DNA from: Eledone cirrhosa
Taxonomy: Eukaryota
Assembly: GCA_964016885.1 (NCBI GenBank)
Contig: OZ024741.1
Coordinates: 182,218,001 to 182,282,000, forward strand
Length of the DNA stretch: 64,000 bases
Reading direction: 5' to 3'
Shown here: positions 12,241 through 63,420 of the stretch, one piece after another
Numbering within the stretch: the stretch's first letter is position 1
How the letters are laid out: each line of letters starts with the position of its first letter
Notes under the pieces: model-generated
Told to the model about the DNA's origin: nothing
What the model saw: only the letters and a program-made list of their open reading frames with translations
The model's database searches: none
Program-made: the position numbers and the translations under genes

Positions 12241-12984
<744 letters not shown>

Positions 12985-13228: not shown

Positions 13229-13282
<54 letters not shown>

Positions 13283-13335
13283 TATGTATACGTACTAAGA
13301 GTGAGAAATGAAATTTCGTTTCATTTTTTACATTT

Positions 13336-13372
<37 letters not shown>

Positions 13373-14674: not shown

Positions 14675-14753
<79 letters not shown>

Positions 14754-14835
14754 GTTATTCCGGGTTGAATCGGAGGTAATCACAGTAAGTAAGGTACTCA
14801 ATACATAGCAGAGTATAAAAGTTTTAATATAGATG

Positions 14836-14886
14836 AGATTCTACAGGACTAAAACTGTTTCATTCTTTAGAAGTCATCAGGAATCT
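14836..14886 (-). ncRNA. Type I hammerhead ribozyme (family A, inverted copy)
   Basis: Reverse complement of 15117-15167 with one loop change. Confidence 0.8.
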
Positions 14887-15116
14887 GGCTTTCCAAAAAT
14901 AAATGTTGTGGTATTTATATCTTTTCAGGTGGTAGGAGAGGGTGGGGAGTGGTATGGGTAGAGGTTGAAAGAAAAGGGAATTCATTAAAAGCTAAAAGAA
15001 TTAGCTTTTAATGAATTCCCTTTTCTTTCAACCAATGACCTCCACCCATACCACTCCCCACCCACTCCTACCACATGAAAAGATATAAATACCACAACAT
15101 TTATTTTTGGAAAGCC

Positions 15117-15167
15117 AGATTCCTGATGACTTCTAAAGAATGAAACAGTTCTAGTCCTGTAGAATCT
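15117..15167 (+). ncRNA. Type I hammerhead ribozyme (family A)
   Basis: AGATTC-CTGATGA-CTTCTAAAGAAT-GAAA-CAG-TTCTAGTC-CTG-TA-GAATCT: 6-bp stem I, full core, GUA cleavage triplet. Confidence 0.85.
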
Positions 15168-15324
15168 CATATATATATATATATATATATAAAATAATGA
15201 ATAAACAAAGAAACAGTTCCTTATATTAAAAATTCATCATTTTACAATCGTTTCTAGGATATATATGTTAGTGTTGGTATGCATATCCTATAGAGCTATG
15301 TGAAATTTTTTTTTTTTTTTTTAT

Positions 15325-18370: not shown

Positions 18371-18994
18371 TATATGAATGTATATATAGTTTATTTTGCA
18401 ATACACTGTATACTTAATTAAAAGCATTTTGAAGACCTTACGCTATTGTTTTATAGTAGTGACAGTCTCACTTACTTTAAATTTTCACCAAACAGGGGAG
18501 ATAAAGCTGACAGAGCTCTGTTTCGTACTTTTTGGTACTTATCAAAGCTAAGTGCTCCACCTGTTTGCTGAAAATCATGAATGTTTGATTCTTATAGAAT
18601 TCTAGTAATAATCAGGAACTGATTATACAGAGCGGTTGCCGGTCAAGCAGAAATTGAAAATTGGAATTGGTGCTCTGAAATAGCGATATATATATGAATG
18701 TATATATAGTGTATTTTACAGTTCCTGATTATTACTAGAATTCTATAAGAATCAAACATTCATGATTTTCAGCAAACAGGTGGAGTACTTAGCTTTGATA
18801 AGTACCATAAAGTAGGAAACAGAGCTCTGTCAGCTTTATCTCCCCTGTTTGCTGAAAATTTAAAGTAAGTGAGACTGTCACTACTCTAAAACAATAGCGT
18901 AAGGTCTTCGAAATGCTTTTAATTAAGCATACAGTGTATTGTAAAATGCACTATATATAAATTCATATATATATCGCTATTTCAGATCACCAAT

Positions 18995-26484: not shown

Positions 26485-26677
26485 CAAAGGAATTGTGGTA
26501 AGGAACCAGATGCACCATAACGCACCAGAGTACTCAATACTTAGGGTAGTAGAGTGGGAAATAGGAAAAAGTATGACCCCGACGGCAGAGTTCAAGCCGT
26601 TTCGACGGCTATTTCTGAATATAATCCAGAAATAGCCGTAGAAACGGCTTGAGCTCGGGGTCATACTTTTTCCTATT
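26482..26677. mobile_element. Fold-back element with half hammerhead
   Basis: Tail 26482-26559, arms 26560-26617 / 26627-26677; minus strand GAAA-CGGC-TTGAACTCT-GCCG-TC is a perfect stem III with GUC. Confidence 0.7.
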
Positions 26678-26721
<44 letters not shown>

Positions 26722-27487
26722 ATGTGTATCTTTGCGCGTGTGTGTGACTTACTTGTAAGACAGTGAACAATATAGGTTTGATAATTCTCTGCATGCATGG
26801 CCCGTGCGGTGTTAGACCTTTTTTCTACAAACTTTACTGTCATAAACAGATATTGTTTGCATTGTAATCAAGCATCTATTTATAATCAAAAGATACCATA
26901 ATACGTTCTCTAACTCATAGGATTGCTTGAATGCGTGAATAGAATACCATAATATTTTGCACTTAGAAAATATTAGCCAACATCTATATAGCCGTATATT
27001 CTTTCAATGGGAATATTCTTTTTTAAAATCTGGATATAGAAACATGATACTTTTGCTCTAAGCCGATGCAGTGGAGTATGACTTATGTAATTAATAATAT
27101 TAGCTATGGTCGGTCGTCCATAAAGTAACGGGCAAGAACAAGGGTATGTTCAGTAAACTTTCAATAAAGCCTGCTTTGCTTAGTTACTTATTTTCTTTGA
27201 TAGATAGACAGATAGATAGGTAGATAGATAGGAACGTGGGTAGGTGGGTAGGTAGGTAGGTAGGTAGGTAGGTAGGTAGGTAGGTAGGTAGGTAGATAGC
27301 TAGATAGATATATTTCTTTATTTGCCACAAGGGCGCACAAGACAGAGGGACAATACAATGACATATGCCGGGGATTTTATATACAATCGTGTAAAAAAAT
27401 AAATAAATATATAGATAGGAAGGTGGGTAGGTAGGTAGGTAGGTAGGTAGGTAGGTAGGTAGGTAGGTAGGTAGGTAGGTAGGTATG

Positions 27488-30277
27488 TTTCTTTATTAGC
27501 CACAGGGGCACAAAAGAAGGGGACAAATACAAAGGGGGAAGTTTACATACAATAAAAACGTGTAAAATATTATCACAAATGCAATTTAAATATTAGTCGA
27601 TTTTCCCCAATAGGGGGAGACATTTCATATGGGTAACACATACCCCCGAAAAAAATGTGCAACCCTCATCTTCAGGAGTACGAAGAGTTTGTACTCCCTT
27701 CCCCTCCTCCTCTTTTTCCTCAACCTACAGGCTGATATAGAAAGAAGGCCCATTCACTCGGGCCATTCTCTCCACTTTCACCCACCTTTCATAAAACTTG
27801 CTGGGATACAGCACCTCTCTCTCCATCCTGATTCTTCTTCCAACGTGGTATTTGAAAAAAAGAATCAGTTGTTGGTCGGAGAGAAAGGTGTGTGACCTCA
27901 GCTCTTTCAACCTTGTCCACCATACAACCTCTTTCGCCATAGCTATCACACAAAGGAAAACCGCTCTTCCTTCGTTTTTGAAGGAGGGTGGCGGTTTGAT
28001 CATGACAATGGACCCGGTGGTCAACCGGATTGGTCCCACCCGCGACAATAGTCGTTCTACATAGCCCCACAGGTCGGTGACGCCCGGGCAGTGTATGAAT
28101 TCGTGCGCGATGGTTTCTTCGTCTCGCACGCACCTTGGACAGATCTTTTTTGCAGGGTCCCTGCCCGGGCGCTCATGTCTGTCGAGCTTGTCTCGAACTG
28201 GTAGAGCTCCTCGGTAGCACTGCCAGGCCAGGGACATTTGAAAGTTGTCCATCGTTCCCGGGCGGAAGGTCCTACCGAACAGACTGGCCAGTTCGTCTTC
28301 CTCTACGCCCAGAGTTTCACCGAGCACGTCGTCGCACTTGCTGCGGATCAACCCTCTATAGAATGACGAAGTGGCGTCTCCACTGATCGCCGGCTCCGCC
28401 TGCCAGAGGGCTGTGAGCGCCTGAGCACATTCGATGTGCCAGTCGCCCATTTTCCTCGGTCTTTGCTTGACCCAGGACTGCAGCTCGGTCAGCGAGACGA
28501 GCCGTGGGAAGGAATACGTAGAGATGCCGCAACCTGAGCGCGTGTTTGCGCATCGTCAGCCACGGCAACCCCAGCCCTCCGTTGGAAGGGCGTTGGCAGC
28601 AGATGGGTCTTCTCACCAAAGGAGCCCGCCTCTTCCAAAGGAATTGGAAGAGCGCACTCTCCATTTTGGCGAGCGTTTTGGCTGGACAAGGCACGATGGT
28701 CAAGCGGTAGTAGATGACGGACGCTATAAAAGCGTTCGCCACCTCCGCTCGAACTTTCAAGGATAGTTTGCACTCGGCCCACTTCTGGGTGAGTGCAAAC
28801 ACCTTGGCCGACACCTCGTTCCAGTTCTTCTCAACCTGGAGGTCCGGACAAAACCAGACCCCGAGCAGCTTTACTGGTCCTTCCGTCCAGCGTCCGACGA
28901 CGCCATCGGAAGGCATCGGTTTGCCTCTCCACGATCCGAGTTGCAAACCGATGGACTTGTCCCGGTTCAGCTTCGCTCCTGTGAACCTTTCGTATTCCTT
29001 CAGTAAGGTGCCGACTTCCTCGATTTGGGAGGCGCTCGACACCATCACTGTCACGTCGTCGGCGTAGGCCGACGCCGCTTTCCGCAGTCCCGGTTCCAGA
29101 GGGATGCCCTGCAATAGCTCCAACCTCCGCAGTAGTGGCTCGAGAGTCAATACGTACAGAAGGGAGGAGAGAGGGAATCCCTGTCGAATGGATCGCGTGA
29201 TATGGAACGGCTCCGAGAGGTAGCCGTTCACCTTATCCCTTCAGCAGATGTTGCTGTTATGCATTGCAGAAATCCAGCCCCTGAACACGGGTCCGAAGCC
29301 TGCCGCCTCGAGCACCGCATCCAGATAACGATGGTCAACCCTATCGAAAGCCTTAGACTGATCCAAGTTGATCAGGGCCCCACCGAAGCCGGGTTTACAC
29401 TCTACCCTCTCTATGATGTATCGCATGAGGTGGAGGTTGTCGTGTATGGACCTGGTCGGGATTGCGCATGTCTGCGCTTCTCCCACCAGGTTCTCGACGA
29501 CAAGCGCCAGCCTCTTTGCCAACACCTTGGCCAAAATCTGTAACTCTGTGTTTAGCAGAGTTATGGGCCGGAAGTTGCCTATGTCATCCCCCTTATTCTC
29601 GTCCTTCCTGATTAGTGTGACTACGCCCCCGGTTACAGAACTGGGAATTCTCCCGTTCTGTTGCCAGTTGCAGTAGACCGCTTCCAGGAGACCGGAGAAT
29701 AAGTCCGGCATTGCTACGTAAAATTCGTAGGGTAGACCGTCGAGACCTGGAGATTTGCGTTTGCCGCATTGGCTCAGCGCGTCCCTTATCTCAGCGGCTG
29801 AAATCGGCTTTTCGCAGAACCTTGCCTCGCTGTCCGAGAGGTATGGACCGAAATCCATAGCCCCTCCCGGCGCGTCGCCTTGCCCGAACAGCTGAGCAAA
29901 GTGCCGCTGAAAGTCCGCACACATCTGCTTCGGCTCACGTATCACGCGTCCGTTTTTGTCCTTTAAAGACCGAATCGTGGACTTGTTGCCACTTTTTGCC
30001 TCCGTCACTCGGGCCCAGCTAACAGCTTTGGCTCCCTCGTTTCCCAGAGCACGTATTTTGCTTCTGACAACGCAGCCCTCGTGCTTTGCGTCGAAGAACT
30101 GGTCCAAGGCCGTTCTCGTTGCTGCACGCTGACTACGTTGCCACTTCTAATTGCCTCTTCTACTTTATCTATCTGTTCTTTCTCGGTTCTATTTCTATCT
30201 AACGCTAATTCTTTACTAAAAACTAACGAGTCTAATCTAACTGCCCTCTTGAGGGAGTACCACCATCTGTTGTTGAC
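27488..30277 (-). mobile_element. 5'-truncated Tx1/L1-clade LINE
   Basis: GC-rich, nearly continuous ORF2; short 3' UTR with AATAAA; abuts (ACCT)n. Confidence 0.9.
27725..30270 (-). pseudogene. LINE ORF2 (reverse transcriptase + CCHC zinc knuckle), frameshifted
   Basis: KSPGLDGLPYEFY, NFRPITLLNTE, LDQSKAFDRVDH, IRQGFPLS, AYADDV, CPRC..ETIAHEFIHC across ORFs 29241-30107, 28356-29231 and 27725-28450. Confidence 0.93.
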
Positions 30278-30284
30278 AGATATG

Positions 30285-30664
30285 TTTCTTTATTAGCCAC
30301 AGTGGCACAAAAGAAGGGGACAAATACAAAGGGGGAAGTTTACATACAATAAAAACGTATAAAATACTATCACAAATGCAATTTAAAAAAACAATCGATT
30401 TTCCCCAATAGGGGGAGACATTACATATGGCTAACACATACCCCCGAAAAAATGTGCAACCCTCATCTCCAGGAGTACGAAGAGTGAGTACCCCTTTCCT
30501 CTCTTCCTCCTTTTCCTCAGCCTACAGGCTGATATAGAGGGAAGGCCCATTTACTCGAGCTATTCTCGCCACTTTCGCCACTAAAATATTATTTATTTTA
30601 ATTTTTTTAGTTCTTTTTCCCATAAAACTTCCATAAAACCTTTCATAAAACTTGCTGGGGATAG
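30285..30664 (-). mobile_element. Second, short 3'-end copy of the same Tx1-like LINE
   Basis: 30285-30580 closely matches 27488-27780; 30641-30664 matches 27787-27808. Confidence 0.9.
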
Positions 30665-31032: not shown

Positions 31033-31122
<90 letters not shown>

Positions 31123-31151
31123 GTACATATGCATATATATGTATATATATA

Positions 31152-31185
<34 letters not shown>

Positions 31186-31313
31186 TATATATATATATAT
31201 ATGCATATATATATATATATATGTATATGTACATATGCATATATATGTATATATATATGCATATATATATATGTATATGTACATATGCATATATATGTAT
31301 ATATGCATATATA

Positions 31314-32141
31314 TACAGTAGTATGTATATATATATATATATACATACATGCACACACACATATATATGTACGTATGGATATACCGAACATTTATTATAA
31401 TGCTCGGTGTGTTTGTAAACAAACATCCCGAATTAAGCCGTACAGTGTTTAGCAACCATCGTTGCCCTTTTGTTCAACACTGACAAAGGAACGATGTACT
31501 AGTTTCAAGCTTATTAGCTATCGTCAGCACCGTATACTTTCCTGCCAGATGATTGAACGTCTGAAAGTATATACTTTCCTTATGCATATTAACGGCTGAG
31601 CAGCCTAATTTGCATATTGAGTGAGGTAATCGGCCGTATGTATATATATATATACATACTACTGTACGTCTGTATACATATATGTATGTACGTATACATA
31701 CTTATATTTAAGTAACAGCCGTACTAAGTGTGAGAAATGAAATTTCGTTTCATTTTTTCCGTTTATCGTTTTCGGTGCGCCCCGCCGATTAACTCACTCG
31801 ATATGCAAATTAGGCTGCTCAGCCGTTAATATGCATAAGGAAAGTATATACTTTCAGACGTTCAATCATCTGGCAGGAAGGTATACGGTGCTCACGATAG
31901 CTTATAAGCTTGAAACTAGTACATCGTTCCTTTCTCAGTGTTGAATAAAAGGGCAACGATGGTTGCTAGACACTGTACGGCTTAATTCGGGATGTTTGTT
32001 TACAAACACACCGAGCATTATAATAAATGTTCGGTAAATCCATACGTACATATATATATATATGTGTGCATGTATGTATATATATATACATACTACTGTA
32101 CGTCTGCAATCGTATATGTATGTACGTATACATACTTATAT
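31314..32141. mobile_element. Fold-back, partially tandem HHR element (434-nt unit)
   Basis: Arms 31314-31634 / 31784-32100; direct repeat 31636-31707 vs 32072-32141. Confidence 0.85.
31491..31533 (-). ncRNA. Minimal type I hammerhead with palindromic stem III
   Basis: ACGGTG-CTGACGA-T-AGCT-AATA-AGCT-T-GAAA-CTAG-TA-CATCGT; the + arm copy has a CTCACGA core mutation. Confidence 0.85.
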
Positions 32142-32157
32142 ATCTATATATTATATA

Positions 32158-32190
32158 CTAGCAATGTATCCCGGCGTTGCACGGGTAAGA
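32158..32190 (-). mobile_element. Helitron 3' terminus
   Basis: A|CTAG followed by CCCGGCGTTGCACGGG hairpin; extent of the element to the right not defined. Confidence 0.6.
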
Positions 32191-32834
32191 ACTTTGGCAA
32201 TAGCACCTCCAATGAGAAACGTTTATTTGGGAATGCTTGTTAAAATCTCACGAAAATATACCGACAGGAAATTTGTTTTATTTGGAGAAAATTAAGAAGT
32301 TGAAAGTACAGTTTAGCTATCTACGTGCATTGTTCATAGAAATATTCTTTTCATACTCCTCTGATTTGGCCTTTTGGAGTAAATGTGAAAGAGAAAGTCA
32401 CAGGTTAAGTAGGCAGAAGGTTCCAGTGTCATAGCAGTCAAGCGTAGGCTACTTACCTCAAAAGTTCCACTAAGTTACTCTTTCTCTCCATCCCTCTCGG
32501 TGCAGTCCCTTGCGCTATTTCTCGCGTGGGCCTGGTGTAGATTTGCACCCGATCCATCTACCCGATGCACATGTCGGCTTTGTACGGCTTTTGGAGGAAG
32601 GAGTGATCAGCAGTACGTTGTTCGGTATTATTACGAAAAGGTGTAGCAGAGAATCCCGGGCGAACTAACAGCTCGGGAGGAAACTGCTTACCTCGCAGAT
32701 TCATTCGCAATCGCTCTTGTTTTACTTGGTATTTGTTGGTCTACAGTTAGATGATGGCGCACAAAGGGTTAATGTTTATTGACAAGAAGTTTTTTGAATA
32801 ATAAAAGACGGGTTAAAGCGACCTACAATGTACT

Positions 32835-32915: not shown

Positions 32916-33169
32916 TTAGTTAAGAACTCACGGTAGTCTTTTACAATTAAATAGCTCTAAGAAAAAAGCTTTTCCGAGCCGTACAATATAATTGAATAAA
33001 CAAGAAAGATGAACACTAATATAAACATACAATGTGTTCGAATGGTAAGGACCAAATTTGGTAGGGTGGAAAATGTGCTGTAGTTAGTATTTTTTCAACC
33101 TAGCAAATTTTGTCCTTACGATTCGAACACATGTATGTTTATATTAGTGTTCATCTTTCTTGTTTATTC

Positions 33170-33177
<8 letters not shown>
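32916..33177. repeat. Fold-back inverted repeat with one-sided tail in (TA)n
   Basis: Arms 32987-33073 / 33090-33177; no HHR core recognised. Confidence 0.8.
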
Positions 33178-33405: not shown

Positions 33406-33632
33406 GTGAAGGCGCATGGCTTAGTGGTTAGAGCATTTGGCTTGCAATCGAAAGGTTGTGAGTTAAATTCTCGGACCGGATGATGTGTTGTTTCCTTGAG
33501 CAAGACACGTTGTTCCAGTTTACTCAGCTGTAGAAATGAGTACCGGCCACCCGCCCAGCCAGTGGGATGGTGTAATCTTATGGCTAAAACAGCACGACGG
33601 GCTGTGACCAGCGGCGCCGATCGGTCAAGGTG
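33406..33632 (+). mobile_element. tRNA-derived SINE (second family)
   Basis: TGGCTTAGTGGTTAGAGC A box, B-box-like GAGTTAAATTC, CCTTGAGCAAGACAC core; relatives at 60338, 63223 and 62880-62998 (minus). Confidence 0.8.
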
Positions 33633-34410: not shown

Positions 34411-35210
34411 ATGTTAAGTCCCTCTACACAGTATTCACCCACGCCGACGGCCTACGTGCCCTCCGGCACTACCTCGACCTTCGCCCTTCCTCCATCCCCT
34501 CTACCCCCACCCTCCTTCGCCTCGCCGAGCTGGTCCTCACCCTTAACTGCTTCTCCTTCTCGGTTGAGTTTTACCAACAGGTCAATGGGCCCAAACTAAG
34601 CCAACCTTTTCGTTGCCCAGTACACCGGCCCCACGCCCGAACTGTACAGTCGTTACATCGATGACTGCATCGGAGCCACGAGCCTCACCCGAGCACAGCT
34701 CGACTCCTTTCCTCCCTTCTGCTCCTTCCACCCCTCCCTCCACTTCACCACCTCTATCTCCACCACCCACGTCCATTTCTTGGACATCTCCGTCGCCATC
34801 GACCCCTCCCACCGCCTTCTCGTCACCTCCGTCTTCTTCAAACCCACCGACTTCCACTCCTACCTCGACTTCACCTCCTCCCACCCTACACACATCAAAC
34901 ACTCCATTCCCTACTCCTAACTCCTCCGGATCCGCCGCCTCTGCAGCCGAGATCTGACTTCGAGTCACAGGCCCTTTCTCTAGTCAGCCATTTCCCAGGC
35001 CCTTTCTCTAGTCAGCTATTTCAACATCGTCTAGGGATCGGTTCACGGAGCACCTCCGTCTTGGCAGGAGTTCCCCCATCGCCCGCCACTTTGGTTTCCC
35101 TGGACATTCCGCCCACCACCTCACAGTCTGTGGCCTAATCCAATGCCATGGGACCCCTCGCTCGCCACCCGCCTCACGGTCGAGCAACACACCATCTTCA
35201 CCCTACGGAC
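34411..35210 (+). pseudogene. Penelope-like element RT + GIY-YIG endonuclease remnant (Neptune-like)
   Basis: LLRLAELVLTLNCFSF, MGPN*ANLFV, YSRYIDDCI (YIDD 34654-34665), FHPSLHFT, VHFLDI, KPTDFHSYLDFTSSHP..K.SIPYS*LLRIRRLCS, LGDRFTEHLR, PIARHF. Confidence 0.9.
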
Positions 35211-44198: not shown

Positions 44199-46704
44199 TT
44201 TAACGAATGGTAATAATGTAAAGTTAGAATGGTTATATATGGTTATTTGTTGATGTGGTTATAACAAAGTTGTTAGATGAAATAACTATAATAAGTATAA
44301 ATGTAATAACGAGAATATAATGAATGTAATAATAATTGATTTGGTTATATATAGTTTACTTCCCGTGAATCAATTAAAAAGTACATATAAAACCAAGAGT
44401 TGTTAACGTTGTTATTGTTTCTGATGTGACGCTTTTGTAGTCTGTTGTTGTTGTTGGTGGTGTGAAAGCAGCGAGCGACAGATAATTGTTGTTGTTGTTG
44501 GAATTTGGAGACCGTGGTAGTAGTTGTGAGACCGTGTTAGTAAGAGAGAGAGAGATATGGTATGTATATCTCTGAATGGTCTGTAGTAACTGTGAACTGC
44601 CGTGGCCTGCATACAGCGGTGAATCTTCCACATTTGTGTTCTGTAGTAGTAAGGTTCCAATCGCTCTGGGTGTATCTGTAGACCTCATGGGGTCTGTTGA
44701 ATAGTGGTGAATCTTTACATAGCTTGTTCTGTAGTGGGGTGCTCCGATGTCTCTGTGCTTGATAGCTTGATACAGGCTCTATATATAGCTGTCACTTCCT
44801 GTCCCCCAACCTGAGGGGGATAGCCCACGCATGAACTTGTTAACACAATAAATGTGGTGACTTAAAATTTGATCTTTAGGTATCACCCAAAGTTCAAGGC
44901 GCGGACAGATTTCGCTACATTAGTACCCAGATCGATGCTAGAGCAGCGATTGATTATAAAAGGTGTAGCGGAATCTGATTCCTAGAAACGTGTCCCAAAA
45001 CACACAAAATGTGGGTACTGCGCCCGCACTTCGAGTGTAGAGAAATTTGGAGAGAGAAAAAAAAATAGTATAACTGAGTATGCATGTGTGTGTGTGTAAC
45101 ATTTAGAAGGAACTGTAAAAATACAAAGTTGTGATCATGTATTTCGAACTGTTGTGTATGGATGGATGGGTTACGGTATCGGATTACGATATGACAACAC
45201 AGAGGACTATTTCTCTCGATGTATCATCACACGTAAGATTCTATTCAGTGAGTCGAGGTTTATGCTATGGCATGAGTGTGTGCAATTTTGAGTTGCCTGC
45301 TCAGTGAGTTGAGCAATTAAGTAACCGTGGTTTGATTATCATGTGTTAAATAACTATTGTCGAACCTTGACCAATTGAATCTCGATGTATTATCATACGT
45401 AAGATTCTCTTCCCGTGAGTCGCGGTTTATGCTATGACATGAGTGTGTGCTCAGTGAGTCGAGCTAAAAGTAACCGTTGGCTGATTATGATTGTGTTTCA
45501 TAGCTTTCGCCGTACCTTGACCAGTCGAAAAGTGATCCCGCAGAGACCCAACCGAATCCAGAATATACCACAGACAAAAACATGTTGGTGTGTGACAAGG
45601 AAAATGATGTGTGTTTGATGTAAAACGTGTTATTAATACAGGCATATAATACAGTAAAACGAATAATAAAAATATATATATATAAATGACATTCATATAT
45701 AACCTGTAAAAAAAATAAAAAATAAAAATATTTTTTATAATTGTTCTTTTAAAAAAAAAAAGTTCGATTTTCTCTTCCCAATGTGATGGTTTTCTTGCTA
45801 GGAAGCTTGTAGTATTGTTTATTGTAGGTTATGAAGCAAGTGAAGTGTTTGGTAGCTGTATATTGCTGAGGTTGGCAAATAAAGCCATGATCAGATCAAA
45901 TAGGCTGCGTGTTATATTAATTTTATTTTAAATACCACTTCGTTATTGTTTTTTTTTTTTTTTTAAAACGTCAGGTCACCAATTTAACGGATGTAATAAT
46001 GTAAAGTTAGAATGGTTATATATGGTTATTTGTTGATGTGATTATAAAAAAGTTGTTAGATGAAATAACTATAATAATAAGTATAAATGTAATAACGAGA
46101 ATATAAGGAATGTAATAATAATTGATTTGGTTATATATAGTTTCACTTCACGTGAATCAATTAAAAAGTACATATAAAACAGTTACCAAGAGTTGTTAAC
46201 GTTGTTATTGTTTCTGATGTGAGGCTGCTGTAGTCTGTTGTTGTTGTTGGTGGTGTGAAAGCAGCGAGCGACAGATAATTGTTGTTGTTGGAATTTGGTG
46301 ACCGTGGTAGTAGTTGTGAGACCGTGTTAGTAAGAGAGAGAGAGATATGGTATGTATATCTCTGAATGGTCTGTAGTAACTGTGAACTGCCGTGGCCTGC
46401 ATACAGCGGTGAATCTTCCACATTTGTGTTCTGTAGTAGTAAGGTTCCAATCGCTCTGGGTGTATCTGTAGACCTCATGGGGTCTGTTGAATAGTGGTGA
46501 ATCTTTATATAGCTTGTTCTGTAGTGGGGTGCTCCGATGTCTCTTGATAGCTTGATACAGGCTCTATATATAGCTGTCACTTCCTGTCCCCCAACCTGAG
46601 GGGGACAGCCCACGCATGAACTTGTTAACATAATAAATGTGGTGACCTAAAATTTGATCTTTAGGTATCACCCAAAGTTCAAGGCGCAGACAGATTTCGC
46701 TACA

Positions 46705-53300: not shown

Positions 53301-53301
<1 letters not shown>

Positions 53302-53493
53302 TTTTAATATAGATGAGATTCTACAGGACTAGAACTGTTTCATTCTTTAGAAATCATCAGGAATCCTGATGATTTCTAAAGAATGAAACAGTTCTAGTCC
53401 TGTATAGTCTCATCTATATTAAAACTTTTATACTCTGCAATGTATTGAGTACCTTACTTACTGTGGTTACCTCCGATTCAACCCGGAATAACG
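53301..53493. mobile_element. Family A fold-back mini-element (two back-to-back hammerheads)
   Basis: Palindrome 53301-53425 centred at 53363, tail to 53493, (TA)n flanks. Confidence 0.88.
53316..53366 (-). ncRNA. Type I hammerhead ribozyme (family A)
   Basis: GGATTC-CTGATGA-TTTCTAAAGAAT-GAAA-CAG-TTCTAGTC-CTG-TA-GAATCT. Confidence 0.82.
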
Positions 53494-55570: not shown

Positions 55571-55788
55571 TATAATAAAGAATTCATATCTAGTAACATA
55601 TATATACATACAGATGCATATCAATGCTAGCAAATATATAGGTTTTGTCTTAATAACAGTGTGGTTCAATGCATGGGGTTGCAGAACAATAATATAAGAG
55701 ACGTAAAATAAGAAAATTATAAAATTAACTTACTTACTAAAATATTTTAGTAAGTAAGTTAATTTTATAATTTTCTTATTTTACGTCT

Positions 55789-55795
<7 letters not shown>
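55571..55795. mobile_element. Truncated fold-back copy of the 60901-61575 family
   Basis: Inverted homology to 61410-61575; perfect palindrome 55692-55795 centred at 55743/55744. Confidence 0.8.
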
Positions 55796-59821: not shown

Positions 59822-59829
<8 letters not shown>

Positions 59830-60252
59830 AGATCAAAAGATGGTTAAAGGAGTTCAATATATTTTATTATGCGCATTTCAAAAGCAAACATCATCAAACA
59901 ATAATATTTGTGTTTTCATCAGATAAAACAGGAGAACATGATATGAAGGCTAAAAAAAAAAACACTTGTTGATAGTGCAGTTTTAAATCAACATATGTTG
60001 ATTTAAAACTGCACTATCAACAAGTGTTTTTTTTTTAGCCTTCATATCATGTTCTCCTGTTTTATCTGATGAAAACACAAATATTATTGTTTGATGATGT
60101 TTGTTTTTGAAATGCGCATAATAAAATATATTGAACTCCTTTAACCATCTTTTGATCTTATATTATGCATACTCCAGTCCCACAAACTGTAGAGTGCTTC
60201 TTATCCGATATGTGCATTGCTTTATTGTACTACAATAAAACTCACCTCCTAC

Positions 60253-60256
<4 letters not shown>
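59822..60256. mobile_element. Near-perfect 345-bp palindrome with one-sided tail in (TA)n
   Basis: Centre 59994/59995, no spacer; decayed HHR TTGATGA...GAAA-TGCGCA-TA at ~60087-60124. Confidence 0.85.
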
Positions 60257-60296: not shown

Positions 60297-60337
<41 letters not shown>

Positions 60338-60460
60338 GTGAAGGCGTGTGGCTGAGTGGTTAGAGAATTGGATTCGCAATCGTAAGGTTGTGAGTTCGAT
60401 TCCTGGACCAGGCGATGCGTTATGTCCTTGAGCAAGACACTTTATTTCACGTTGCTCCTT
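60338..60460 (+). mobile_element. tRNA-derived SINE head (second family)
   Basis: TGGCTGAGTGGTTAGAG, GAGTTCGATTCC; homology with 63223-63420 extends to ~60540. Confidence 0.85.
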
Positions 60461-60556
60461 CTACCTGAAGTTGCGACCGATAGATAGTATTAGCAATTGG
60501 AAAGACCAACGGAAACATTGTTCCCTCGGTATCGATTTGACGAAAGTCGATCGTTC

Positions 60557-60903: not shown

Positions 60904-61575
60904 GAAAGACGTAAATAAGAAAGTTATGAAAATTGACTTATTTACTAAAATTTCACTCCAACTAATTAGTTTCTGTAAGGGGATATAATTACAGTTATGT
61001 AATACCTGCAGAGAAGCCTTACGTCATCAGGTAGTCTATTCTCAGCTAAGCCACCAGGCAATGCGGGGACACTGGAAGCTTATATAACAATAATTCAGTG
61101 GATGGAAAAAAGCGAAAAAATCGAACGGTACTAGATTCTAAGCCACTGAAAAATTCGCTGCCTTCTTGCCCCACTCCAAGCTGGTTAACCTCAGTGTCAC
61201 GTGATTAATTCTTTTGAATTTGCCACTTGACCAAGAAGGCAGCGAATTTTTCAGTGGCTTAGAATCTAGCCCCGTTCGATAAGCTTCCAGTGTCCCCGCA
61301 TTGCCTGGTGGCTTAGCTGAGAATAGACTTCCTGATGACGTAAGGCTTCTCTACAGGTATTACATAACTGTATTTATCCCCTTACAGAAACTAATTAGTT
61401 GGAGTGAAATTTTAGTAACTAAGTCAATTTTCATAACTTTCTTATTTACGTCTTTCATATAATTGTTCTGCATTCCCCTGCATAGAACTACAACGTTACT
61501 AAGACAAAACATATATATCTGCTAGCGTAGGTATGCATCTGTATACATATGTCGGTAGATATATTAATTCTTTAT
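60901..61575. mobile_element. Fold-back PLE-type mini-element in (TA)n
   Basis: Arms 60901-61168 / 61232-61459, tail 61460-61575. Confidence 0.85.
61327..61405 (+). ncRNA. Type I hammerhead with extended stem II
   Basis: ACTTC-CTGATGA-C-GTAAGG..TACAG/CTGTA..CCTTAC-A-GAAA-CTAATTAG-TT-GGAGT; inverted copy at 60955-61035. Confidence 0.8.
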
Positions 61576-63222: not shown

Positions 63223-63420
63223 AGTGAAGGCGCGTGGCTGAGTGGTTAGAGAATTGGTTTCGTAATCGTGATATCGATTCCCGGACCGGCGATGCGTTAT
63301 GTTCTTGAGCAAGACAGTTTATTTCAAGTTGCTCCTTGTCTGGATTTGCGACCGACAGATAATATTAATAATTGGAAAGACCAAGGGAAACATTGTTTCC
63401 TCGGTCCGATTTGATGAGCT
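63223..63420 (+). mobile_element. tRNA-derived SINE (second family)
   Basis: Matches 60338-60540. Confidence 0.8.

What the first reader, a model, noticed from the sequence alone, without database searches (positions are those of the whole stretch)
31314..32141. Second circularly permuted ribozyme unit, 434 nt
The + strand 31636-32141 starts and ends with the same ~70 nt (CATACTACTGTACGTC at 31655 and 32089), i.e. about 1.16 monomers, preceded by a 320-bp inverted arm with an intact HHR. Its 6-nt palindromic stem III (ACTAGT) is of the type reported to need dimerisation, which fits a multimeric RNA. A related fragment lies at 13281-13330.
Basis: partly seen in the sequence, partly recalled or inferred. 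Interest (0 to 1): 0.8.

Follow-up and report, generated by a model that had tools for sequence, protein, structure and literature searches.

The report
Dead retrozyme copy, Penelope-type insertion
This is one decayed copy of an abundant 434-base non-coding repeat that carries a self-cutting (hammerhead) RNA motif and is likely pasted into new sites by Penelope-like jumping genes, so it is a new example of the known animal "retrozymes" and not a new kind of element.

Summary
The anatomy is real: a 506-nt forward copy (31636-32141, period 434, 72-nt end repeat, 66/72 identical) and a 322-nt inverted arm (31314-31635), set in (TA)n. So a closed ~434-nt non-coding unit exists as a large family. 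Corrections: the forward copy's hammerhead has a private G5C core change (about 99% of laid depth or reads have G). The only intact core is in the arm, on the opposite strand, and is predicted to be paired away in any read-through RNA. This locus cannot release a unit-length RNA. The layout (inverted 5' copy, partial tandem, ~40-nt one-sided tail, (TA)n target) is the published signature of Penelope-like element (PLE) insertion. Family 3' ends pile up at three fixed sites, two in predicted hairpin loops, like the internal RT starts of a PLE in vitro. Best reading: a non-LTR retrozyme mobilised by a PLE from an uncut multimer or a circle. Cleavage, expression and circularity are untested. New member of a known kind; interest 0.4.

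The parts
31036..31313 (.). left (TA)n-rich target array
   Evidence: array 31036-31347, period 2; its inner part may hold a decayed inverted tail, test inconclusive
31314..31635 (-). inverted 5'-truncated copy (arm), mirror of 32100-31783
   Evidence: C31635 mirrors the family allele G at 31783, leaving a 1-nt microhomology at the inversion point
31491..31533 (-). type I hammerhead with complete core; predicted cut between 31497 and 31496
   Evidence: numbering
31636..31707 (+). first copy of the 72-nt end repeat; carries the family allele at the site where the second copy differs
31688..31724 (+). predicted hairpin 1, spanning the head-to-tail junction; family 3' end T1 (31707 = 32141) falls in its loop 31705-31708
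   Evidence: fold; joints and the 32144 C>A row
31734..31756 (+). predicted hairpin 2; family 3' end T2 (31744/31745) falls in its loop 31744-31746
   Evidence: fold; loose ends, 15,123 + 10,643 reads, agreement 0.34
31708..32141 (+). one full 434-nt period, non-coding, 36% GC
   Evidence: longest Met-ORF 60 codons on +, 55 on -
31885..31927 (+). type I hammerhead with private G5C change at 31893; predicted inactive
32072..32141 (+). second copy of the end repeat; 32101-32141 is a 41-nt extension absent from the arm (PLE-type tail)
32142..32155 (.). right AT-rich target remnant, followed by an unrelated repeat end
   Evidence: rows 32144-32185
13273..13337 (+). second, stump-sized insertion of the same family: inverted T1 end (13280-13295), 5-nt microhomology, forward piece equal to 31720-31766 ending at family 3' end T3, in (TA)n
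   Evidence: the T3 end recurs in 50 contigs of X1 and 4 of X7

Best explanation
This is a decayed insertion of an abundant, non-coding, ~434-nt hammerhead-bearing repeat unit (a non-LTR retrozyme) that was likely copied into a (TA)n array by the reverse transcriptase and endonuclease of a Penelope-like element. Shown: the closed unit, the family-wide G at core position 5, fixed 3' ends, the inverted-arm plus tail layout, and this copy's G5C change. Inferred mechanism: source loci with two or more units are transcribed, and their hammerheads would pair through the palindromic stem III and cut out monomers that may be circularised. A PLE protein would nick (TA)n DNA and start cDNA inside the RNA at hairpin loops. 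One cDNA ran 506 nt (1.17 units, through the uncut ribozyme site). A second, primed from the other target strand, ran 322 nt, and the two joined head to head. The copy has since decayed. It has one ribozyme per strand, so it cannot release a monomer, and any read-through RNA is predicted to fold into a ~320-bp hairpin that buries the motif.
For: Junction shared: 32141>31708 in 12 contigs of X1, 939+516 reads from 121 starts in X21, 1 contig of X4 (another organism label), 0 in X7. A variant junction has 23,200+107 reads from 109 starts. Overlapping diverged contigs bridge 31708-32031 (table 8). Family size: 10,742, 129 and 109 contigs laid, and 84,844 of 12,467,656 RAD read records. G at 31893: 702,472 of 703,875 depth (X1), 1,580 of 1,583 (X7), 7,590 of 7,670 and 10,146 of 10,418 reads (X21), 518 of 518 (X4). 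Fixed 3' ends at 32141, 31744/45 and 31766, the first two in predicted loops (31685-31770 z -3.3, 1 of 300 shuffles as stable). The 13.3-kb stump ends exactly at 31766. PLE layout as published: PMC8557442, PMC3846280; internal RT starts in a stem-loop define the tail: PMC11167929. Hammerhead geometry is the canonical retrozyme type, with precedents for the 1-bp palindromic stem III and the U-U base of stem II in axolotl retrozymes (PMC7229834). A double hammerhead is predicted at -19.0 kcal/mol against -17.4 for two blocked monomers. Hairpin burial: 40 and 41 of 43 ribozyme positions pair with the mirror arm at P>0.9.
Against: No array with two ribozyme-bearing units was seen: no genome is held and the listed contig pieces are short, so the junction reads could all come from partial tandems. 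No homology to a PLE terminal repeat was found; only the window could be searched. The G10.1-C11.1 pair is absent, and in X1 most depth at 31888 (359,621 of 612,513) reads T, which turns a stem I G-U into U-U unless its partner also changes in a row not shown. The predicted dimer minimum-energy fold (-20.8) is an inactive form, below the double hammerhead. T3 and the arm's end are not in stable predicted loops, and AT-rich microhomology with the target could alone explain where ends appear. 32035-32097 was skipped by the read tool. X1 may be the window's own source, RAD coverage is uneven, and 652 loose-end rows were not shown, so a branch into a longer element is not excluded. In the 2026 preprint only 1 of 9 tested retrozyme dimers cleaved in vitro.
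Confidence: 0.72

Rival explanations
1. The sequence is only the terminal repeat region of an autonomous PLE, truncated at insertion; the 434-nt period arises copy by copy and no independent small element exists.
For: Arm, tail, (TA)n target and hammerhead are all features of truncated PLE copies. Most hammerheads in animal genomes were reported as single motifs probably from truncated PLEs, some in opposite-strand pairs 100-700 bp apart (PMC4209133). Only 24 of 676 loose-end rows were shown.
Against: The same junction recurs in many reads and in two organism labels, a predicted hairpin spans it, and diverged contigs run unbroken through 31766-31790. No shown high-agreement loose end inside the unit leads to unrelated sequence; those at 31856, 31950 and 31974 read as subfamily variants of the unit (my comparison by eye).
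Confidence: 0.13
2. The unit is a hammerhead-bearing satellite or dispersed repeat amplified at the DNA level (unequal crossover or extrachromosomal DNA circles), with no RNA intermediate now.
For: The 2026 preprint proposes local tandem amplification of a PLE end as the origin of retrozymes.
Against: Fixed 3' ends running into diverse flanks, inverted arms at both window copies and (TA)n targets fit target-primed reverse transcription.
Confidence: 0.07
3. The family moves as a PLE passenger from linear read-through or multimeric transcripts, and the hammerhead is a vestige that rarely cuts, so no circle is involved.
For: In vitro, the anole PLE used uncut RNA as its main template and ribozyme mutants inserted normally (PMC11167929). 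Both cDNAs here cross the cut site without a scar. The predicted monomer fold is blocked (-8.7 versus -6.5).
Against: G5 is near-invariant among copies that differ at many other sites, while the free position N7 varies (31895 C>T), which suggests selection on the core; 52 difference rows were not shown. This rival overlaps the best explanation in everything but the template.
Confidence: 0.08

Closest known systems
Metazoan non-LTR retrozymes (Cervera and de la Pena 2020, PMC7229834: passages and sections 14, 15, 17 read; Li, Clavereau and Pollet, bioRxiv 2026.07.22.740005: parts 1-3 of 5 read)
   Same: Short non-coding unit with a canonical type I hammerhead, low GC, strong predicted self-pairing, head-to-tail junction, high copy number; 1-bp palindromic stem III as in axolotl Amex1 and U-U at the base of stem II as in Amex2.
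   Different: 434 nt is just above the 170-400 nt of the 2020 paper (inside the 51-972 bp of the preprint). This locus is a dispersed 1.17-mer with an inverted arm, not a multimer. No RNA was seen. The preprint's main text has no occurrence of 'tail' and 'inverted' only in a reference title.
Insertion architecture of endonuclease-bearing Penelope-like elements (Arkhipova et al. 2013, PMC3846280, passages; Craig et al. 2021, PMC8557442, passages; Frangieh et al. 2024, PMC11167929, parts 1-2 of 4)
   Same: Partial tandem, adjacent inverted 5'-truncated copy, 30-40-bp one-sided tail, (TA)n target without a visible duplication, ends at internal stem-loop sites.
   Different: No RT-endonuclease ORF; the repeated unit is 434 nt instead of kilobases; the hammerhead has the canonical 6-bp/4-bp stems, not the long helix II of minimal PLE hammerheads (PMC4209133, parts 1-2 of 4).
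Non-autonomous Chlamys elements such as MRC1 (PMC8557442, passage)
   Same: Non-autonomous PLE passengers with pseudo-LTRs and head-to-tail insertions.
   Different: Green algal; Chlamys elements mostly lack canonical hammerheads.

Membership tests
Type I hammerhead ribozyme | Core C3-U4-G5-A6-N7-G8-A9, G12-A13-A14-A15.1, U16.1-H17 | tested here: met
   Arm copy complete; G at position 5 in about 99% of laid family depth or reads
Type I hammerhead ribozyme | Same core in the forward copy of this locus | tested here: not met
   C at G5, 31893
Type I hammerhead ribozyme | Stem I about 6 bp, stem II about 4 bp, short stem III with palindromic loop | tested here: met
   6 bp with one G-U, 4 bp, one A-U pair plus palindromic tetraloop; a common family variant weakens stem I
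Type I hammerhead ribozyme | G10.1-C11.1 pair at the base of stem II | tested here: not met
   U-U; same deviation reported for the cleaving axolotl Amex2 motif
Type I hammerhead ribozyme | Match to an Rfam hammerhead model | tested here: not met
   No hammerhead family among 1 hit or 89 hits
Type I hammerhead ribozyme | Self-cleavage | not testable with these tools
   Only folding energies
Non-LTR retrozyme | Small non-coding low-GC unit with head-to-tail junction shared by copies | tested here: met
   434 nt, 36% GC, longest Met-ORF 60 codons; shared junction
Non-LTR retrozyme | Highly self-paired unit | tested here: met
   z -4.9 without the microsatellite; 2 of 37 control tiles scored lower, median -0.4; circular fold z -8.6, likely inflated by AT repeats
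Non-LTR retrozyme | At least two consecutive hammerhead-bearing units somewhere in the genome | tested here: inconclusive
   Not at this locus; no genome held; listed contig pieces too short
Non-LTR retrozyme | Expression as monomeric circular RNA | not testable with these tools
   No suitable RNA reads were available to lay
PLE-type insertion | Partial tandem with adjacent inverted 5'-truncated copy | tested here: met
   second case at 13273-13337
PLE-type insertion | 30-40-bp tail at one end only; discrete 3' ends | tested here: met
   41-nt extension here; family ends T1 and T2 are 37-38 nt apart
PLE-type insertion | (TA)n target bias | tested here: met
   Both window copies; loose ends into (AT)n at 31766 and 32151
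Autonomous PLE | ORF with reverse transcriptase and GIY-YIG endonuclease | tested here: not met
   No ORF over 60 codons in the unit
Non-autonomous derivative of a given PLE | Sequence homology to that PLE's terminal repeat | tested here: inconclusive
   No match within the 64-kb window; no genome or repeat library to search

The most novel reading that the evidence does not exclude
The family is a genuine small circular RNA replicon whose thousands of dispersed copies record, at their ends, a PLE enzyme starting inside hairpin loops of the circle and rolling past one full turn. That would be insertion-level proof that Penelope-like elements mobilise animal retrozymes through circular RNA, which the papers read here argue only from co-occurrence and phylogeny.
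Probability: 0.35. Interest if true: 0.65.

Novelty: new member of a known kind. Interest (0 to 1): 0.4.

Why it matters
Who mobilises animal retrozymes, and whether the template is a circle, is proposed but unproven in the papers read. This family joins a retrozyme-sized closed unit to every published PLE insertion mark and has enough dispersed copies for a statistical test on one assembly. It also offers a 434-nt minimal substrate for PLE reverse transcription in vitro. The locus itself is a dead copy with no sign of a host function.

Tried and rejected
No whole genome is held, so copies could not be aligned end to end. No RNA holder listed; this says nothing on expression. Exact-motif scans found 0 matches in metagenome and viral contigs. 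Rfam: no hammerhead hit; the 89 low matches are mostly AT-rich microRNA models, all below gathering. Whether the left flank is a decayed inverted tail: score 41, tied with the best unrelated array among 63 loci (828 tiles), inconclusive. Summed contig depth was not used as copy number. The four clustered differences between the two end repeats are private to the second copy, so they do not show a two-unit template. A conserved host ribozyme gene was rejected: private substitutions in both halves and loss of G5. An assembly artefact was rejected: arm and forward copy differ at 9 of 266 bases. Earlier scan notes by sequence and place: none. Paper searches found no description of this family in listings or passages read; Repbase and Dfam could not be searched and no supplements were read, so it may already be deposited.

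Full report
Observation. The forward segment 31636-32141 begins and ends with a 72-column repeat, 66 identical, at period 434, i.e. 1.17 units. It is preceded by an inverted arm, 31314-31635, that mirrors 32100-31783 with 9 substitutions in 266 non-microsatellite bases. Both sit in AT-dinucleotide DNA. The window is animal-type, microsatellite-rich DNA; a resemblance to octopus genomes is recalled and was not tested. The fragment at 13273-13337 matches 31703-31766 at 56 of 65.

The ribozyme. Numbering each base gives a type I hammerhead with a 6-bp stem I, a 4-bp stem II above a U-U pair, and a stem III of one A-U pair closed by a palindromic tetraloop. The arm copy (minus strand, 31533-31491) has the whole core. 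The forward copy has C at G5 (31893), which by established hammerhead chemistry is expected to inactivate it. Rfam does not detect either copy. The geometry is that of canonical metazoan hammerheads, which need a second copy to cut well (PMC4209133). Both weak features have precedents in axolotl retrozymes that cut better as dimers (PMC7229834). Folding agrees only modestly: the monomer prefers a blocked fold (-8.7 against -6.5), a double hammerhead scores -19.0 against -17.4 for two monomers, but an inactive dimer scores -20.8.

The family. No genome was held, so I laid 4 of 23 listed runs on 31708-32200 at 82% likeness: three contig sets (X1, X7, X4) and one RAD-seq read set (X21). Laid were 10,742, 129 and 109 contigs and 84,844 of 12,467,656 read records. 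Position 31893 reads G in 702,472 of 703,875 depth (X1), 1,580 of 1,583 (X7), 7,590 of 7,670 and 10,146 of 10,418 reads (X21) and 518 of 518 (X4). The G5C change is therefore private to this copy, as are the changes at 31783, 31903, 31934, 31946 and the cluster 32107-32112. The free core position N7 varies in a subfamily. A common variant at 31888 would weaken stem I. Forty difference rows were shown and 52 were not.

The unit is closed. The joint 32141>31708 occurs in 12 contigs of X1, 939+516 reads from 121 starts in X21, 1 contig of X4 (a different organism label) and none of X7. A variant with 10 letters between 32135 and 31708 has 23,200+107 reads from 109 starts, and X7 has one contig at 32134>31708. 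Overlapping diverged contigs bridge 31708-32031; 32035-32097 was skipped by the tool but is continuous in both halves of this locus. A predicted hairpin spans the junction (31688-31724). The unit is 36% GC, has no Met-ORF over 60 codons, and is more structured than shuffles (z -4.9; 2 of 37 control tiles were lower). Limits: X1 may be the window's source, RAD coverage is uneven, summed depth is no copy number, and 652 loose-end rows were not shown.

Ends. Copies stop at fixed places. T1 is at 32141, followed by (AT)n: 220,643 of 226,244 depth reads A at 32144 in X1. T2 is at 31744/31745, where 15,123 + 10,643 reads run into sequence with agreement 0.34, i.e. diverse flanks. T3 is at 31766, followed by (AT)n in 50 contigs of X1 and 4 of X7. 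T1 and T2 lie in the loops of two predicted hairpins and are 37-38 nt apart; T3 is not in a stable loop. The 13.3-kb stump ends exactly at T3, starts with an inverted T1 end, and joins the two through 5 nt that form the outer stem of hairpin 1. In the main copy the arm stops 41 nt short of T1, and the inversion point has 1 nt of microhomology once the family allele at 31783 is used. Arm and forward copy agree at 15 of the 19 polymorphic sites checked, and the other 4 are the forward copy's private changes. That fits one insertion event, though these alleles are linked.

Comparison. Craig et al. describe partial tandems, an adjacent inverted 5'-truncated copy, a 30-40-bp tail at one end, and (TA)n targets as PLE hallmarks (PMC8557442, passages); Arkhipova et al. 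show the same (PMC3846280, passages). Frangieh et al. showed in vitro that a PLE starts reverse transcription at two internal sites in a stem-loop, that the tail is the stretch between them, that AT-rich DNA is cut, and that ribozyme cleavage is not needed (PMC11167929). Cervera and de la Pena proposed more-than-unit reverse transcription of circles, and a 2026 preprint argues that retrozymes are non-autonomous PLE derivatives from co-occurrence and phylogeny. The layout is common in this window: I picked 13 fold-back insertions from a self-comparison; 10 abut a (TA)6+ run within 5 nt at one end, partly by construction since such runs were masked, and 5 hold hammerhead-like cores.

Mechanism. 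Shown: closed unit, G5 retained family-wide, fixed ends, inverted-arm layout, decay of this copy. Inferred: transcription of multi-unit source loci, dimer cleavage, possible circularisation, PLE-driven priming from both strands of a (TA)n target, internal starts at hairpin loops, and head-to-head joining of two cDNAs. The 506-nt piece crosses the cut site and exceeds one unit, so its template was an uncut multimer or a circle; this locus cannot tell which. The locus is a dead end: one ribozyme per strand, the forward one G5C, and 40-41 of 43 ribozyme positions predicted paired with the mirror arm in a read-through RNA of either strand.

Verdict. The element is best filed as a new non-LTR retrozyme family carried by a PLE, with membership incomplete because no dimer locus and no RNA were seen. 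Eight paper searches showed no description of this family; repeat libraries and supplements were not seen and may hold it. Earlier scan notes on other genomes reach similar PLE readings; they are unchecked and are not counted as support. Interest 0.4.

Noticed in passing
window 12406-12788, 14753-15323, 18375-18965, 26560-26677, 32991-33172, 53301-53493, 55697-55790, 59825-60255, 60904-61456: Further fold-back insertions beside (TA)n, usually with an extension on one side; those at 14.8, 53.3 and 59.8 kb carry hammerhead-like cores on both arms. They are other families with the same PLE-type layout.
   Followed up: partly
window 34600-34917 (+) and 36279 (+): Broken reverse-transcriptase fragment whose motifs I recall as PLE-type, with a hammerhead-like core 1.4 kb downstream. 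Pfam gave 0 families; Atlas feature hits scored 0.96, one cluster set with PF26215 in 79% of members. No sequence match to the 434-nt unit.
   Followed up: partly
window 32152-32190 (-): GC-rich hairpin followed by CTAG, recalled as a Helitron 3' end; it is a separate repeat family, with 4,764 reads continuing into a different shared sequence behind 32185.
   Followed up: no
window 27486-30579 (-): LINE-type reverse transcriptase ORF pieces (RVT_1, E 2e-12 and 2.8e-10) flanked by a 298-bp direct repeat at 27486-27782 and 30283-30579, 91% identical. Tiles at 28701 and 29401 fold far better than shuffles (z -8.9, -7.5). A long direct repeat around a LINE-like ORF is unexplained.
   Followed up: no
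window 33406-33525, 60337-60543, 63223-63417: tRNA-derived SINE-like heads; the first just reaches the Rfam tRNA score.
   Followed up: no
   Followed up: no
window 44199-44919 and 45983-46704: 731-column direct repeat, 95% identical.
   Followed up: no
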